This document shows, one piece after another, positions 8,141-31,593 of a DNA stretch of 64,000 bases. The DNA comes from the human T2T-CHM13v2.0 reference genome, Homo sapiens: NCBI RefSeq assembly GCF_009914755.1, contig NC_060944.1, one strand, 5' to 3'. The position numbers were made by a program, and so were the translations under genes. The notes below the pieces were generated by a model. That model was not told the DNA's origin and made no database searches. It was given only the letters and a program-made list of their open reading frames with translations. Positions within the stretch are counted from its first letter, which is position 1. Each line of letters starts with the position of its first letter.

Positions 8141-9609
8141 TGAGTCTAACAGGGTGGGAAAACACTTAGATAATCTCTAGAGAGACTCTGACTATACTAG
8201 TCTAGGCTTGACTCGTCAGCCATCTCATGCCCATTCCCAACCCACCCAGAGATCCCGCAAACCTGGGAGATCCTAACAAACCATTTTTTAAATGAAGAGA
8301 AGAGACTATGGCAGAATCTACAGACTGATGCAATCCACATCCATTTCAACCATTTTTTATGTATCTCTCTATAGTGCAGAGGCTACAATGTTAAAAGCTA
8401 CATTCTCCAGACCCCCTGAAGGTAGGGTCGGCTGTCATTTATGTTTCACCAGTCAGATGCACTCTCACAAGGGTTGAACCAAGGCTAAGTTAGAGGAAAG
8501 CAGAGTGTAGGACATATATTCTGCTGGTACAGACCATGGCAGAAGCAGAATGGTTCTCCAGCCGGGAGCTTCCTGAATTGTAGCCAAGGCACCATGACTC
8601 AGGGGGAGGAAATTTTCCTGATACTCAGTGTACCGGCTTCTCCTTCAGCCCTCCAAGTGATTTTGTAGGACATCTAATCCTAATAATAAACTTTCTGTTT
8701 AAACTAGCTAGAGTAGTTCCTGGTTTTGTAACTGATGCTTAACCAATATAGAAGATAAGAGAGATACAGGAGTTTGCCTGAGGTCAATCAGCTAGTTGAT
8801 GCCAGAGCTGAGGTTCGAACTCAAGAATCTTAGGATGTGGCCTTCTGCTCCCAACCTCAAGTAACCTGAACTCTTGGGACACCAATCAGTGGGGCTGGGG
8901 TAAAAGGAATTCTTAGGGAGATCCTGTGTTCCCCGGTTTTAGCTGACTCCTCTTCACCCCATTGGTGAAGGAGGAATTTCTGACCTAGGGTTATAAGGAT
9001 GGCCAACCACATGACACCCATTGCTGAACAGATGAGATCCATAGCTGTTTATTTTTCACATCCCAGCCTGGGGACAAGGACACTGCATGCCACCCAGGGC
9101 CACAGGGAGATTGCACTTGGGAGCCCCGTGTGCCACCGGGGGCTGTGAGAGGCAAGGTTTATAGTGTTATGAGGGTGAGATGTTCTCTGCCTCCCACAGG
9201 AGGGTATGACTGGCTTGCTTGAATAATTCTGCAGGCTGTCAGGAAACTGAAACCCATTCATCAGGAGTAAGCAGGACCTGTAGCTGGTCCCTTAATAAAG
9301 AGGTTGTTTAGCTATGAGACTTTTACCATGGGAATACAGTAAAGAGGGAAACTTGAGATTAGTAAATTCCAGGTCCCTCGTGATTTTATCAGATGTCACG
9401 GTAGCAGATAAGATTGAATTTGAATTTTAAATTTTGGACCACATCTCCTTGAACAAAATTGTTGAGATGATGGGAAAAAAAACAGTGTTGAAGATAGCAG
9501 TGCCAGGCAGCTACTCCCTCAAAGGGATAAATAAGCAGGTGACCTCTTATTAATGGCCCAGGGCACCAGCAGTTGTGGTCATAAGTGAGTTACATGAAGT
9601 CAGCCTCTC

Positions 9610-9757
9610 CTGGATTTTTCACGATGTGAATACATGCTTTTCCATACATGCCCTTACAGTACTAGAATTCATCTTAGCACTGGCCTTTCTTCTCACAGTT
9701 GTTTGGGGGTTTGGGCATCACATACTGGCCTCTGGTACTTCCAGACCTTCGGCATAA
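9610..9757 (-). pseudogene. Fossil SLPI-like WAP-domain exon
   Basis: 9730-9617 translates GQYVMPKPPNNCEKKGQC*DEF*YCKGMYGKACIHIVK, colinear without gaps with SLPI WAP2 (recalled sequence). Two stops; Cys-to-Tyr changes. Confidence 0.85.
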
Positions 9758-10057
9758 CAAGAGAGAGCAAGACCATATGTCATCCCTGTCCCTAGGATTC
9801 TGCCCCACCACTTCCAGTGGATGCAATCAAGCCTGAGAATTGCCTTCAGGAACAAGCAACCACCCTGTTGGCCAGTGTTGAACTTTCCCTGGCAATACAA
9901 CCCGTAATGTTAGTCAGCTTCTGGTCTATTTGCTTCCATGGACTTGTAACCAAAGCCAAGTATCTTGTTGTATAGATGTTAATTAATTCATTATGCTCCA
10001 TATTTCATGTATGCTTTTGAGGTGATCGCTCACATTTTTAATTCTAAAAAAATTTTT

Positions 10058-13300: not shown

Positions 13301-14279
13301 AATAAACATCAGATGCAGAAAATAACTTGTGGAATGAACAAGTGAATGCATTCAGAAAGAAGCCACTTCACTCTCCAACTTTGCCCATCCCTGGGGCCCC
13401 TAAACCGTGTCTGGACATTTATGGTTTTCTTTGTTCTTAATTAGAAAAGGTCCTTTAAAAATGCGAACTTATACCAAGCTGGGATAAAGGCACTGGCATA
13501 TCACCCCCAGTCTGGGGTCAGGCAACTGGGTTGGTGGCCAGATGCCCTCATGGTAGTGTTGGCCACAGTGAAAAAAAAACTCTGCTAAGCTGGATGACAA
13601 AGAAAAAGATTGGGAAATTAGGAAAAATAAGGAAAGATCAGATCATTCAAATCCTCCCTGATAATCAATGGGTGACAGATGACAGATGGGACTGCAACAT
13701 CTCCTACACAGATGACAACTGTGTGGTCCAACCATTCCCCAGCTGGGGTTTTCCCACCTAAACCATTCCTGACTTGTACTTGTTAAATGTCCCCCCGCCC
13801 CCAATGATTTCCCAGAATAAAATTCTATGTAGGCTGGTAAGAGGGTGCTTCTCCTCAGTGATGAAATCCCTACAGAGGGGAGCTTGAGGTCTCAGGGAAG
13901 ATGAGACCTGGAATCTGAGGCAAAGGCAGAAAAGGTTTGTGTTAAAAGATAGGGAAATAGACTGATAATGGGAGAGCTTGAATGACTTCCACCAACAGTC
14001 ACCCCAGAAATGATTTTTATCAGAGACATACCGGGGCATTTCTGGCAATCTCTCAAGGGCTTAGAGGAAGGCATCCCATTTATCAAATTGCTAATGAAGG
14101 AAGCTGCAATCTGTCATGAGGAATTGAAGTTTGGAGCTCTGACAAGACCTTGAAAAAAAGAACATTGGAGATTAAGTGTCTGTCAACCAGAGCTGAACAC
14201 TATCCACAAGAGAGGCCTGGGACCAGAGGGGGATTCTCTAAACTATTAAACCTTAAAGCATGAATCATTTTTAGTTCTA

Positions 14280-29520: not shown

Positions 29521-31593
29521 GCTCACAGGTTTTACAAGAGGGGACACTGAGGCAAAAGTGTCCCATGGAGGCTGTGCTGCTGACAAACGGCAGAGCGGCT
29601 CCTGCCATTCACCTGCACTGTATCTCGGGCTTTGCTTTGGTCTACTCCATAAACTTCCTGAAAAAGGTTTCTTTGAAAAAGTCCAAATTTGTCCCTAATA
29701 ACTGAAGGGTAGAAATGTGAAATGGGCCTACTCTGGGATCAAGACCACCTGGGTTCAAACCCTAACTTGGAAGCTCTGGGCCTTGGGCAACTAACTGGCC
29801 TCTTTCAAGTTCAGTTTTCCCTCCTGTAGGTTGAGAGGTTTCAACGAGACAACACAGATGAAAGGCACAGCCTGGCCCCCAGCATGCAGGCCAGTGTTTG
29901 GTAATTGATAGTTTTCTCTCCTGTTTCACTATCCTAGGTCCAAAGAACCAGAAGAGTAGACAGTCCTTAGAGACAGCAGCTGTGCCGGCTGCAGAAATGG
30001 AGAGAGCTGTGAGCTAGAATAGAAGAAGAGAAAGGCCAAAAACCACGGAGAAACAGAGCCAGACAACACAGAGGTGAAATTCAGAAAGCGAGTCCAGCAC
30101 TTGGCTGAAGTTACAGGCCCTTCCTGCCCTGCCCTTTCCCACCCAAGGCCATGCCTAGTTCATGTTACTAAGTCTAAGAAACAGCTCCAGAAGTGGCATC
30201 TCTGCTAACCACTAGGGAAGATATTGTCGTTTTTTAATGATTCAAACTCTCCAGGGAACCAAGAAGGCTGAGGGCGCTGAGTTCTCTCCACACACCTGGG
30301 CTCAGGACTCCCCCAATATCTACGTGCTTTATTCCTGATCTTAACAGGCTCTGAAAGCCACATAAACCCGTGCTTGCCTGGGTACCAAAAGACCCGGGCC
30401 CGGGGGTCTTTGTTCGGGCTCGGTGCCTTCTCCATCTAAGCTTTCTTGGCAGTGTTACTCTCCTCACACTGTTACTTGGGTTCTCACTTTCTGTTCTTGA
30501 GTTAATGGATGTTTGTTTTCCTGAATTCACGGGTCCTTTGTAAGTCTTCTATCCCATAACGTAAGATGGGGGTATAAACAAAGAAGCAAGCGCTAGCTGA
30601 CCTTATGTGGGGCATGGTTAGGGAACAGGAATTCCCTGTATCCAGCAGGGTTAAGCTGGTAGGAGGAAAGGGAAATGAGAGAAAGGAATCAAGAAGTGAG
30701 AAAGGGAACCAGTACCTGTCAACACCAACACACACCTGGTAAGTAGCAGGGCTGGTCTTCAAATCCAGGACTATGGGGCCACTGCATGGGAACAGAAGCA
30801 GCTTGTAGACTTCGGTGGTGGGGCTGCCAGAGTCGGGGAATTAAGGGAGGACAGGCTCTGCAGCCCAAGTGCCAGATGCCAACGGCCTGCGAAGGCTCTA
30901 GGACCCAGCTCCAAATCAGTGCTCCCGGCGCCATCCAGTGGCCATTAGGGAGATTGCAAGAGAAAAAAGCATGAGAAAAGAAACCCCAGAGAAGCCAGTG
31001 CCTGCCAACTCCAGGGAAGAGGAAGGAAGGAGCCTGGCCTTTGCCCTCAGTGCCCCCTATCAGTTGACTACCCTGCTCCAGTTTGACCTCCCCACTAGGC
31101 TTCTTCCTGGTGCAACTGATGTTTTCTCTCTGTGTGACCTTGGGCAGGCAACTCTGGCCTCTAGGCCTCAGTTTCCCCAACTGTAAAATGAATGGTAAGG
31201 CAAGGTGAGGTCACATGCCAAGTCCATAGGTCTTTAGCTCATCTGATCCTCATGGCCAGGTAAGATGATCATTCCCATCCCCCCATACTCCAGTCCCTCC
31301 TGACCACGCATAGTTCAAGCTTCACTCACCTGTAAAGTCTTCCATGGCCTCCTGCGGAAATTCCAGCCACCGTTTAAGGATCACCTCTCCAGGATTTCTC
31401 CCTCCTCTCATCTGAAGTTCCCTCTTTCTGCAACAGTCAGGTGGACCTCAGCCCTTCTAGCCCGGAGCTTCCTCAGCTCAAGAGTTTTTCTCAATCATCA
31501 GTTTCTCCCTCTTCACCAAGCCTAGCAAGGTGCCCGGCACAGAGTACTTAAGAGCAGCTGCTCTGAAGTCAGTCAGCCTGGCTTCAAGCCCCA

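What the first reader, a model, noticed from the sequence alone, without database searches (positions are those of the whole stretch)
9610..9771. Fossil SLPI-paralogue WAP exon hidden in the SLPI-MATN4 intergenic region
Seen: minus strand 9730-9617 reads GQYVMPKPPNNCEKKGQC*DEF*YCKGMYGKACIHIVK. It is preceded by AAG TAC CA (K-[C>Y]-P) and a pyrimidine tract lacking its AG, and followed by AAT CCA G|GAGAGG (likely a GT>GA donor loss). Against SLPI WAP2 as I recall it (GQCLMLNPPNFCEMDGQCKRDLKCCMGMCGKSCVSPVK) it aligns without gaps at 19/38 identities. Four of the eight WAP cysteines appear as Tyr (single G>A changes), and there are stops at 9676-9674 and 9664-9662. The ORF track misses it entirely. 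It has the same orientation as SLPI, just upstream of it. Inference: an ancient tandem SLPI duplicate (a lost WFDC gene) whose inhibitory loop had Val-Met at P1-P1' instead of Leu-Met, which would suggest elastase preference. It may still be intact in other mammals. I do not know of an annotation for it.
Basis: partly seen in the sequence, partly recalled or inferred. Interest (0 to 1): 0.85.

Follow-up and report, generated by a model that had tools for sequence, protein, structure and literature searches.

The report
Decayed SLPI-type WAP exon relic
About 15 kb upstream of the human SLPI gene lies the broken, non-functional remnant of an old copy of SLPI's second inhibitor-domain exon; it is an ordinary leftover of gene duplication and loss that RefSeq does not annotate.

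Summary

The similarity to SLPI is real:
- tblastn with SLPI: 20/40 identities, E=1e-6 in the window.
- DNA match to SLPI exon 3: 68% over 131 nt, E=1.5e-12.
- It is the 5th of 15 genome-wide matches to an SLPI-family profile, E=1.1e-4.
- The best score in 40 random windows was 4.9 bits, against 21.8 observed.

Of 30 human WAP loci, only SLPI exon 3 matches it. It falls inside the WAP2-type clade.

It is dead. It has two stops, half of its cysteines are Tyr, its 5' end has frame-breaking indels, and both splice sites are gone. No copy of SLPI exons 1, 2 or 4 exists anywhere between SLPI and MATN4.

Divergence from SLPI (K2P 0.41) points to a duplication roughly 100-200 Myr old. The phylogeny is unresolved.

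A second SLPI-like lineage does exist in bats, carnivores and ungulates, but orthology to this relic is not shown.

This is an unannotated pseudo-exon of a known kind and of modest interest.

The parts
9617..9730 (-). Core of the relic: 38 codons homologous to SLPI residues 94-131 (WAP2 domain, exon 3). They align without gaps. Stops lie at 9676-9674 (TAA) and 9664-9662 (TAG). Cys>Tyr changes lie at 9724-9722, 9661-9659 and 9646-9644.
   Evidence: Translation. tblastn 20/40, E=1e-6. blastn 68-69% identity, E=1.5e-12 and 9e-14. Codon table. Profile hits.
9731..9750 (-). Damaged 5' part of the exon relic, homologous to the SLPI codons for the linker and the first WAP2 cysteine. It is 9 nt shorter than SLPI. 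It is out of frame with the core by one base, and the first Cys codon reads TAC.
   Evidence: Sequence. MAFFT alignment A1, where GAAGGTCTGGAAG...TACCAGAGGCCAG aligns to the SLPI exon 3 start with a 9-nt gap.
9751..9772 (-). Pyrimidine-rich stretch where the acceptor of intron 2 would be. There is no AG at the position aligned to the SLPI acceptor.
   Evidence: This is a short, low-complexity resemblance. The 200-nt upstream flank is not clearly homologous to intron 2: 14 of 300 shuffles reach the observed score.
9600..9616 (-). First bases after the exon relic, which still align to the start of SLPI intron 3. The donor G|GT of SLPI reads A|AT here (9616-9614).
   Evidence: Local alignments run from SLPI sense 2113 to 2242. 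That is 15 nt past the exon end at 2227.

Best explanation
This is the decayed, non-functional relic of one exon. It is a copy of the SLPI exon that encodes the second, protease-inhibiting WAP domain. The copy arose by an old local duplication of SLPI, or of part of it, within the centromeric WFDC cluster. It has since eroded as neutral DNA.

Shown: homology to SLPI exon 3 and to no other human WAP exon; the same strand and neighbourhood as SLPI; two stops; loss of 4 of 8 cysteines; frame-breaking indels; loss of both splice signals; and absence of any partner exon.

Inferred: the age, on the order of 100-200 Myr, at or before the radiation of placental mammals. This rests on K2P 0.41 over 115 nt and on recalled neutral rates. 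Also inferred is that the relic does nothing today. Whether the copy was ever a working gene is not known.
For: - Translation and stops.
- tblastn with SLPI: 20/40, E=1e-6; the next hit has E>=0.022.
- blastn with the SLPI gene: only exon 3 matches, 131 nt at 68% identity, E=1.5e-12.
- Among 30 human WAP-bearing loci, only SLPI exon 3 matches. DNA E=1.1e-13 against a next best of 0.86; tblastx E=2.6e-9 against a next best of 0.35.
- PI3 scores 26.2 bits with 8 gaps, WFDC12 has no significant match (12.3 bits, E=1.3) and SLPI scores 43.1 bits without gaps.
- In the genome-wide SLPI-family profile search the relic ranks 5th of 15, at E=1.1e-4 with 1 TAG and 1 TAA.
- Random control: maximum 4.9 bits in 40 windows against 21.8 observed.
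- In the tree of 129 WAP domains over 38 columns, the relic is inside the WAP2-type clade (support 100/97) and outside the catarrhine SLPI clade (100/92).
- Identities: 21/36 to the eutherian WAP2 consensus and 9 to the WAP1 consensus.
- 36 differences in 115 nt, spread 11/10/15 over the three codon positions, K2P 0.41.
- The relic is single-copy in the genome and lies in unmasked DNA with no RefSeq feature except a lncRNA intron on the other strand.
- A processed copy is unlikely. Exons 2 and 4 are not adjacent to it, and the match runs 15 nt into intron 3.
- SLPI duplicates repeatedly in mammals. There are extra copies in rat, hamster and vole, and in hamster and vole the copy next to Matn4 is probably non-functional (Lundwall 2020, PMC7556508, passages read). 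Several species have multiple 'antileukoproteinase-like' proteins.
Against: - The generic Pfam WAP model did not list the relic among its 33 genome-wide matches at E<=10. That search scores only its best candidates, so this is weak evidence.
- Only about 40 codons survive.
- The relic's place within the eutherian WAP2 radiation is unresolved.
- The AU test does not reject placing it with catarrhine SLPI (p=0.123). On the protein tree alone a recent origin is therefore not excluded; only the DNA divergence argues against it.
- The flanks show no significant homology to SLPI introns. A genomic rather than processed origin therefore rests on the absence of neighbouring exons and on 15 aligned intron bases.
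- No other mammalian genome could be inspected, so the age is not checked by synteny.
- dN/dS against SLPI is 0.34, with a bootstrap 95% range of 0.11-1.06. This neither shows nor excludes a functional phase.
Confidence: 0.85

Rival explanations
1. The relic is the human remnant of the second SLPI-like gene that survives in Scrotifera (bats, pigs and peccaries, ruminants, horses and rhinos, carnivores). The placental ancestor would then have had two SLPI genes and the human lineage lost one.
For: - A strongly supported paralogue clade exists beside ordinary SLPI in the same orders: 27 rows at 100/99, and 26 rows at SH-aLRT 100.
- That clade joins the tree in the same unresolved eutherian polytomy as the relic.
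- The AU test does not reject relic plus this clade (p=0.157). The group was named after the tree had been seen.
- The relic's divergence fits a duplication at or before the placental radiation.
Against: - At 5 diagnostic columns the relic has the ordinary-SLPI residue at 4 and the paralogue residue at 0.
- Identity to the paralogue rows averages 13.3 (n=27), against 17.3 for ordinary rows (n=77).
- The paralogue-only profile gives 14.6 bits, against 27.3 bits for the ordinary-SLPI profile.
- The full-length tree weakly places the clade next to carnivore and rhino SLPI (support 81, branch 0.016). That placement would fit a Laurasiatherian origin.
- The genomic position of those genes could not be seen.
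Confidence: 0.25
2. A recent, primate-specific duplicate of SLPI exon 3 that decayed quickly.
For: The AU test on 38 protein columns does not reject relic plus catarrhine SLPI (p=0.123).
Against: - The 31% nucleotide difference (K2P 0.41) from human SLPI exon 3 is far above what two copies could gather within primates. This is an inference from recalled neutral rates.
- The free tree excludes the relic from the catarrhine clade (100/92).
- At codons 14 and 26 the relic has Lys where human SLPI has Met. For codon 26, Lys is also the commonest residue among the ordinary eutherian rows. For codon 14 the consensus is Thr, with Lys only third (5 of 47 rows), so no ancestral state is shown there.
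- Human SLPI ranks only 23rd of 109 family proteins by score against the relic.
Confidence: 0.03
3. A processed (retrotransposed) SLPI pseudogene fragment.
For: No intron homology can be demonstrated in the flanks.
Against: - In a processed copy, exons 2 and 4 would abut exon 3 and would have decayed equally. Neither is detectable within 200 nt or anywhere in the interval.
- The alignment runs 15 nt into intron 3.
- A pyrimidine tract sits where the acceptor should be.
- The relic lies 15 kb from its parent on the same strand.
Confidence: 0.03
4. A relic of another WFDC gene of the cluster, such as a trappin/PI3-like or WFDC12-like gene, rather than of SLPI.
For: The PI3 WAP domain is the next closest human relative of the SLPI WAP2 profile. 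It gives a weak gapped match to the relic: 26.2 bits, 16/47.
Against: - DNA-level homology is to SLPI exon 3 only.
- SLPI aligns without gaps at 43.1 bits.
- The relic sits inside the SLPI WAP2 radiation in the tree.
Confidence: 0.06
5. Chance similarity.
For: None beyond the short length.
Against: - E=1.5e-12 for DNA.
- E=1.1e-4 genome-wide with the family profile.
- 40 of 40 random windows score at most 4.9 bits, against 21.8 observed.
- The location is next to the parent gene.
Confidence: 0.01

Closest known systems
Human SLPI exon 3 (second WAP domain of antileukoproteinase; solved as PDB 2z7f chain I and 4doq)
   Same: The two are homologous at DNA level (68% over 131 nt) and at protein level (19/38). 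They show the same cysteine spacing and ungapped register. They share the strand and chromosomal neighbourhood. The match continues 15 nt into the following intron.
   Different: The relic has two stops, 4 of 8 cysteines changed to Tyr, a 9-nt shorter frame-shifted 5' end, no acceptor AG and no donor GT. It has no partner exons.
WFDC12 pseudogene inside intron 1 of PI3 (Hurle et al. 2007, as cited in Kato et al. 2010, PMC2831891; passages read)
   Same: Both are an isolated, dead WAP-coding relic in the same centromeric WFDC sub-locus, left by duplication and loss.
   Different: The parent gene and place differ, and that relic is published. I could not read Hurle 2007 itself (not held). I therefore cannot say whether it also lists the relic studied here.
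Extra Slpi copies of rat, hamster and vole, the one nearest Matn4 probably non-functional in hamster and vole (Lundwall 2020, PMC7556508; passages read)
   Same: Both are tandem SLPI duplicates on the Matn4 side of Slpi, some of them inactivated. They show the same birth-and-death process at the same spot.
   Different: The rodent copies are whole genes and look lineage-specific. The hamster 'antileukoproteinase-like' protein P0098 groups with other myomorph rodent SLPIs. The human relic is one exon and much older than such copies.
Second SLPI-like lineage of Scrotifera, found here (26-27 proteins named antileukoproteinase or antileukoproteinase-like in public sources)
   Same: It is an old SLPI paralogue with a WAP2-type second domain. 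Its point of origin in the tree is as unresolved as that of the relic.
   Different: The relic shares none of the 5 diagnostic residues of that lineage. It fits that lineage's profile 12.7 bits worse than the ordinary-SLPI profile. Its synteny is unknown.

Membership tests
WAP / four-disulfide-core domain (Pfam PF00095) | Eight cysteines in the conserved spacing | tested here: not met
   The spacing is kept, but only 4 of 8 positions are still Cys. Three in the core are Tyr. The first is TAC in a shifted frame. This is a relic, not a domain.
WAP / four-disulfide-core domain (Pfam PF00095) | Match to the Pfam model over its gathering score | tested here: inconclusive
   The relic is not among the 33 matches at E<=10 in the genome-wide search with PF00095. 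That search scores only 49 first-look candidates. The translation holds stops, so I did not hand it to the family scanner, and its pieces are shorter than 20 aa.
WAP / four-disulfide-core domain (Pfam PF00095) | Significant sequence similarity to bona fide members | tested here: met
   tblastn E=1e-6. SLPI-family profiles give i-E 4.8e-8 and 6.6e-10. The genome-wide search gives E=1.1e-4.
SLPI lineage, second-domain (WAP2) exon | Closest human relative is SLPI exon 3, at DNA level | tested here: met
   It is the only match among 30 human WAP loci, at E=1.1e-13. It is the only one of the 4 SLPI exons with a match in the interval.
SLPI lineage, second-domain (WAP2) exon | Groups with WAP2-type rather than WAP1-type domains | tested here: met
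   The relic is inside the WAP2-type clade, support 100/97. Identity is 21/36 to the WAP2 consensus and 9 to the WAP1 consensus.
SLPI gene (functional member) | Four-exon gene: signal peptide, WAP1, WAP2, terminal exon | tested here: not met
   No copy of exon 1, 2 or 4 was found in the gap locus L032 plus window 1-33000. The protein profile found none in the whole window or in L032.
SLPI gene (functional member) | Open frame with acceptor AG and donor GT | tested here: not met
   There are two stops, a frame-shifted 5' part and no AG. The donor reads AT.
Processed pseudogene | Neighbouring exons joined without introns | tested here: not met
   The 200-nt flanks show no significant match to exon 2 or exon 4: 33 and 52 of 300 shuffles reach the observed scores. 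The alignment enters intron 3.
Scrotiferan second SLPI-like lineage | Shares the derived residues or profile of that clade | tested here: not met
   0 of 5 diagnostic columns agree. The clade's profile gives 14.6 bits against 27.3 bits for ordinary SLPI. Stem-group orthology is not excluded (AU p=0.157).
Scrotiferan second SLPI-like lineage | Same genomic position (between SLPI and MATN4) | not testable with these tools
   No mammalian genome other than the human reference was available, and the protein search gives no genomic context.

The most novel reading that the evidence does not exclude
The placental ancestor carried two SLPI genes side by side. One survives as the separate SLPI-like lineage of bats, carnivores and ungulates; in bats only that lineage appeared among my hits. 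This pseudo-exon would be all that is left of it in humans. The human single-SLPI state would then be a loss, datable from shared lesions across primates and other mammals.
Probability: 0.25. Interest if true: 0.4.

Novelty: new member of a known kind. Interest (0 to 1): 0.25.

Why it matters
The relic adds one unannotated pseudo-exon to the map of the WFDC cluster. That cluster is already known for rapid gene birth and death, and it matters for innate immunity and reproduction. It shows that SLPI was duplicated on its MATN4 side long before primates. This conflicts mildly with the statement that most eutherians simply have a single SLPI gene (Kato 2010, PMC2831891, passage read).

Its practical value is as a marker. 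Lesions shared between species at this site could date the loss. They could also test whether the second SLPI-like gene of carnivores, ungulates and bats is its living counterpart. It has no evident function or medical consequence in humans.

Tried and rejected
- **Pfam WAP genome scan.** It did not list the relic. I did not take this as evidence against homology, because the scan scores only its best first-look candidates and family-specific profiles find the relic.
- **Search for the other exons.**
  - A tblastn hit of SLPI residues 13-74 at window 13858-13664 (-) had E=0.022 without composition adjustment and 1.0 with it. It looked like a possible WAP1 relic. No profile supports it, so I rejected it as chance.
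  - Weak hits at window 30949-31183 (+) show no cysteine pattern and were rejected.
  - blastn with each of the 4 SLPI exons over the whole SLPI-MATN4 interval found only exon 3.
  - The 200-nt flanks do not match any SLPI exon or intron beyond shuffles.
- **Search for an ortholog among proteins.** 109 family proteins plus human SLPI were run against the relic by tblastn, and none stands out. I saw only the 45 best rows of that output.
- **Trees.** The 38-column trees leave the relic in a polytomy. AU tests reject neither a catarrhine nor a Scrotiferan-paralogue placement. The log-likelihood gaps were large (38.7 and 26.8) while the p-values were not small. This suggests that the constrained searches were poor and the test weak.
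- **dN/dS.** It is too noisy to show a functional phase.
- **Literature.**
  - Hurle 2007, Clauss 2005 and Clauss 2002 are not held.
  - A search for 'SLPI pseudogene', 'SLPI paralog' and 'SLPI duplication' gave 0 occurrences in the listed papers. The 'SLPIP1' hits are tomato aquaporins.
  - The search for SLPI + WFDC + pseudogene led to two relevant papers. The passages I read in them do not mention a human SLPI relic.
  - The figures and supplementary files of Lundwall 2020 and the three unheld papers could bear on whether this relic has been seen before. GENCODE could not be consulted.

Full report
**What is there.** On the minus strand, window 9730-9617 translates as GQYVMPKPPNNCEKKGQC*DEF*YCKGMYGKACIHIVK. 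The stops are TAA at 9676-9674 and TAG at 9664-9662. The window is chr20:46996001-47060000 of T2T-CHM13. SLPI lies just outside it at chr20:46988133-46990454 on the minus strand. The stretch is therefore at chr20:47005617-47005730. That is 15.2 kb upstream of the SLPI start on the same strand, and 23.6 kb from the 3' end of MATN4. It lies in DNA that is not repeat-masked. The only RefSeq feature over it is an intron of the plus-strand lncRNA LOC105372630.

**Is the similarity real?** I built the SLPI protein from RefSeq's coding exons on locus L003.
- tblastn of SLPI against the window gives one clear hit: residues 92-131 to 9736-9617, 20/40 identities, no gaps. E=1e-6 with composition adjustment and 2.6e-8 without. 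The next hit has E=0.022 without adjustment and 1.0 with it.
- At DNA level the whole SLPI gene matches the window significantly only through exon 3: 131 nt at 68% identity, E=1.5e-12. The other listed matches are repeated low-complexity intron sequence.
- A profile of 67 full-length SLPI-family proteins, run on the six-frame translation with X at stops, hits only this site: positions 93-132, 21.8 bits, i-E 4.8e-8. In 40 random windows with the same dinucleotide make-up the best score was 4.9 bits.
- A genome-wide search with a 9-protein SLPI alignment ranks the site 5th of 15 matches: E=1.1e-4 for the whole genome, 33.1 bits, 1 TAG and 1 TAA inside. It comes behind the two SLPI WAP exons, PI3 and WFDC12, and ahead of WFDC5, WFDC8, EPPIN and WFDC2.
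- The generic Pfam WAP model did not list it among 33 matches at E<=10. I weigh that little because that search scores only a first-look shortlist.
- The stretch is single-copy in the genome.

**Which gene is the parent?** Among 30 loci holding the human WAP matches, the relic's DNA matches only SLPI exon 3 (E=1.1e-13, next best 0.86). tblastx agrees (E=2.6e-9, next best 0.35). PI3 gives 26.2 bits with 8 gaps, WFDC12 has no significant match (12.3 bits, E=1.3), and SLPI gives 43.1 bits without gaps. In a maximum-likelihood tree of 129 WAP domains (38 columns), WAP2-type domains are split from WAP1-type domains with support 100/97, and the relic is on the WAP2 side. It matches the eutherian WAP2 consensus at 21 of 36 comparable positions. 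It matches the WAP1 consensus at 9.

**State of decay.**
- The codon table shows 36 differences in the 115-nt core, spread 11/10/15 over the three codon positions.
- Of the seven Cys codons in the core, four are kept and three are Tyr.
- Upstream, the sequence aligned to SLPI's linker and first cysteine is 9 nt shorter and one base out of frame. That cysteine codon reads TAC.
- There is a pyrimidine tract but no AG where the acceptor aligns.
- At the other end the alignment continues 15 nt into intron 3, and the donor G|GT reads A|AT at 9616-9614.
- Differences run about 2:1 in the GC-to-AT direction, and the relic's GC content (0.44) equals its surroundings (0.45), against 0.51 for the SLPI exon. 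This fits neutral decay.

**Partner exons.**
- Neither the mixed family profile nor the profiles of ordinary SLPIs or of the paralogue lineage find a WAP1 or signal-peptide exon anywhere in the window.
- The mixed family profile also finds none in the 5.7 kb between SLPI and the window start.
- blastn with each SLPI exon over that gap plus window 1-33000 finds only exon 3, at E=9e-14.
- The 200-nt flanks match no SLPI exon or intron beyond shuffled controls.
- Exons 2 and 4 would have decayed at the same rate as exon 3. Their absence next to the relic therefore argues against a processed copy.
- Their absence from the whole interval means either deletion, a duplication that took only part of the gene, or a one-domain parent. 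I cannot tell which.

**Age.** K2P distance to human SLPI exon 3 is 0.41 over 115 nt. dS is about 0.7-0.9, with a bootstrap range of 0.32-2.4. With recalled mammalian neutral rates this points to roughly 100-200 Myr, at or before the placental radiation. This is an inference with wide error. Three observations fit it. Human SLPI ranks only 23rd of 109 family proteins by score against the relic. The relic lies outside the catarrhine SLPI clade (100/92). It has Lys where human SLPI has Met at two codons; at codon 26 Lys is also the commonest residue among the ordinary eutherian rows. On the protein columns alone, however, the AU test does not reject a catarrhine placement (p=0.123). dN/dS of 0.34 (95% 0.11-1.06) hints at, but does not show, a period under selection.

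**Relatives in other mammals.** I started from the open frame around SLPI exon 2. I then used a 9-protein alignment. Together these collected 109 family proteins from named public sources. The profile search left out 3313 candidates known from samples alone.
- None is a stand-out match to the relic. The best is 22/39 (golden mole SLPI); the rest of the 45 best rows I saw lie between 39.7 and 48.1 bits.
- The trees revealed a strongly supported second SLPI-like lineage in bats, pigs and peccaries, ruminants, horses and rhinos, and carnivores. It has 27 domain rows at 100/99. It has 26 full-length rows at SH-aLRT 100, where 10 single-domain or partial rows were dropped.
- Ordinary SLPI exists beside it in carnivores, perissodactyls and cetartiodactyls.
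- Its origin falls in the same unresolved polytomy as the relic, and joining the two is not rejected (p=0.157; the group was named after seeing the tree).
- There is no positive link, however. At 5 diagnostic columns the relic has the ordinary residue at 4 and the paralogue residue at 0. The paralogue profile scores 14.6 bits against 27.3 bits for the ordinary profile.
- Rodent extra copies are described by Lundwall 2020 (PMC7556508, passages). They comprise three extra copies in rat and hamster and one in vole. In hamster and vole the copy nearest Matn4 is probably non-functional.
- These copies look lineage-specific, because the hamster-like protein groups with other myomorph rodent SLPIs.

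**The reactive-site inference.** The relic reads Val-Met where SLPI reads Leu-Met. Living SLPIs have mostly Met or Leu at that position. GTG is one step from ATG, TTG or CTG, and 17 of 38 codons have already left the consensus. The letter at one site of a long-dead exon is not evidence for the specificity of a functional ancestor. That this Leu-Met is the SLPI reactive bond is recalled knowledge; no call tested it. Structures of this domain exist as PDB 2z7f and 4doq.

**Is it known?**
- RefSeq has nothing here, according to the annotation given with the task.
- In the held library, the phrases 'SLPI pseudogene', 'SLPI paralog' and 'SLPI duplication' have no occurrences in the listed papers.
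- Kato 2010 (PMC2831891, passages) reports a single SLPI gene in most eutherians. The only pseudogene it mentions in the passages I read is the WFDC12 pseudogene in PI3 intron 1.
- Hurle 2007, Clauss 2005 and Clauss 2002, the papers most likely to list such a relic, are not held. GENCODE could not be checked.
- I therefore call the relic unannotated in RefSeq and not found in print by these searches. I do not call it certainly new.

**Verdict.** This is a genuine, old, dead copy of the SLPI WAP2 exon. It is an ordinary product of birth-and-death evolution in the WFDC cluster. The complete lost gene, the reactive-site reading and a surviving ortholog remain unshown. Its main use would be as a marker to date an ancestral SLPI duplication and to test its link to the second SLPI-like lineage of Scrotifera.

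Noticed in passing
L027:1501-1629 (+) = chr20:46965940-46966068, outside the window, between SEMG2 and SLPI: This is another WAP-like relic. The Pfam WAP match has E=0.107 and 24.8 bits with one TAG. It translates as KPECCPEFSVACPFILLPMCWQDKICKGVKWCCYYERRH*CME. No RefSeq gene other than lncRNA LOC105372630 spans that position in the gene list. It might be the human remnant of WFDC15, a gene present in all the Glires studied by Lundwall 2020. That link is my guess and was not tested.
   Followed up: partly
Proteins P0064-P0097: A distinct second SLPI-like lineage appears in bats, suids, ruminants, perissodactyls and carnivores (support 100/99 and 100). It exists beside ordinary SLPI in most of these orders. 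All bat sequences among my hits belong to it, and none belongs to the ordinary group. I found no paper describing it in the searches made.
   Followed up: partly
Proteins P0011, P0012, P0014 (toothed whales) and P0013 (Sorex): These are SLPI forms with three WAP domains. The whales carry a tandem repeat of the WAP2-type domain, and the shrew has an extra WAP1-type domain.
   Followed up: no
window 9740-9644 (-): All four lost cysteines became Tyr through G>A at the second codon position. G>A is also the commonest difference from SLPI, at 9 of 36. This is probably the ordinary transition and GC-to-AT bias of neutral decay, but four out of four is a little striking.
   Followed up: partly
G000 chr7:45285464-45285604 (-) and chr7:45286383-45286508 (-), loci L023 and L020: These are two neighbouring WAP matches on chromosome 7, one of them with a TAG inside. 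They are possibly the human whey-acidic-protein pseudogene; that identification is recalled and was not checked.
   Followed up: no
window 13664-13858 (-) and 30949-31183 (+): Weak tblastn or blastn resemblances to SLPI's first domain. They are not supported by any profile and show no cysteine pattern, so I judged them chance.
   Followed up: yes
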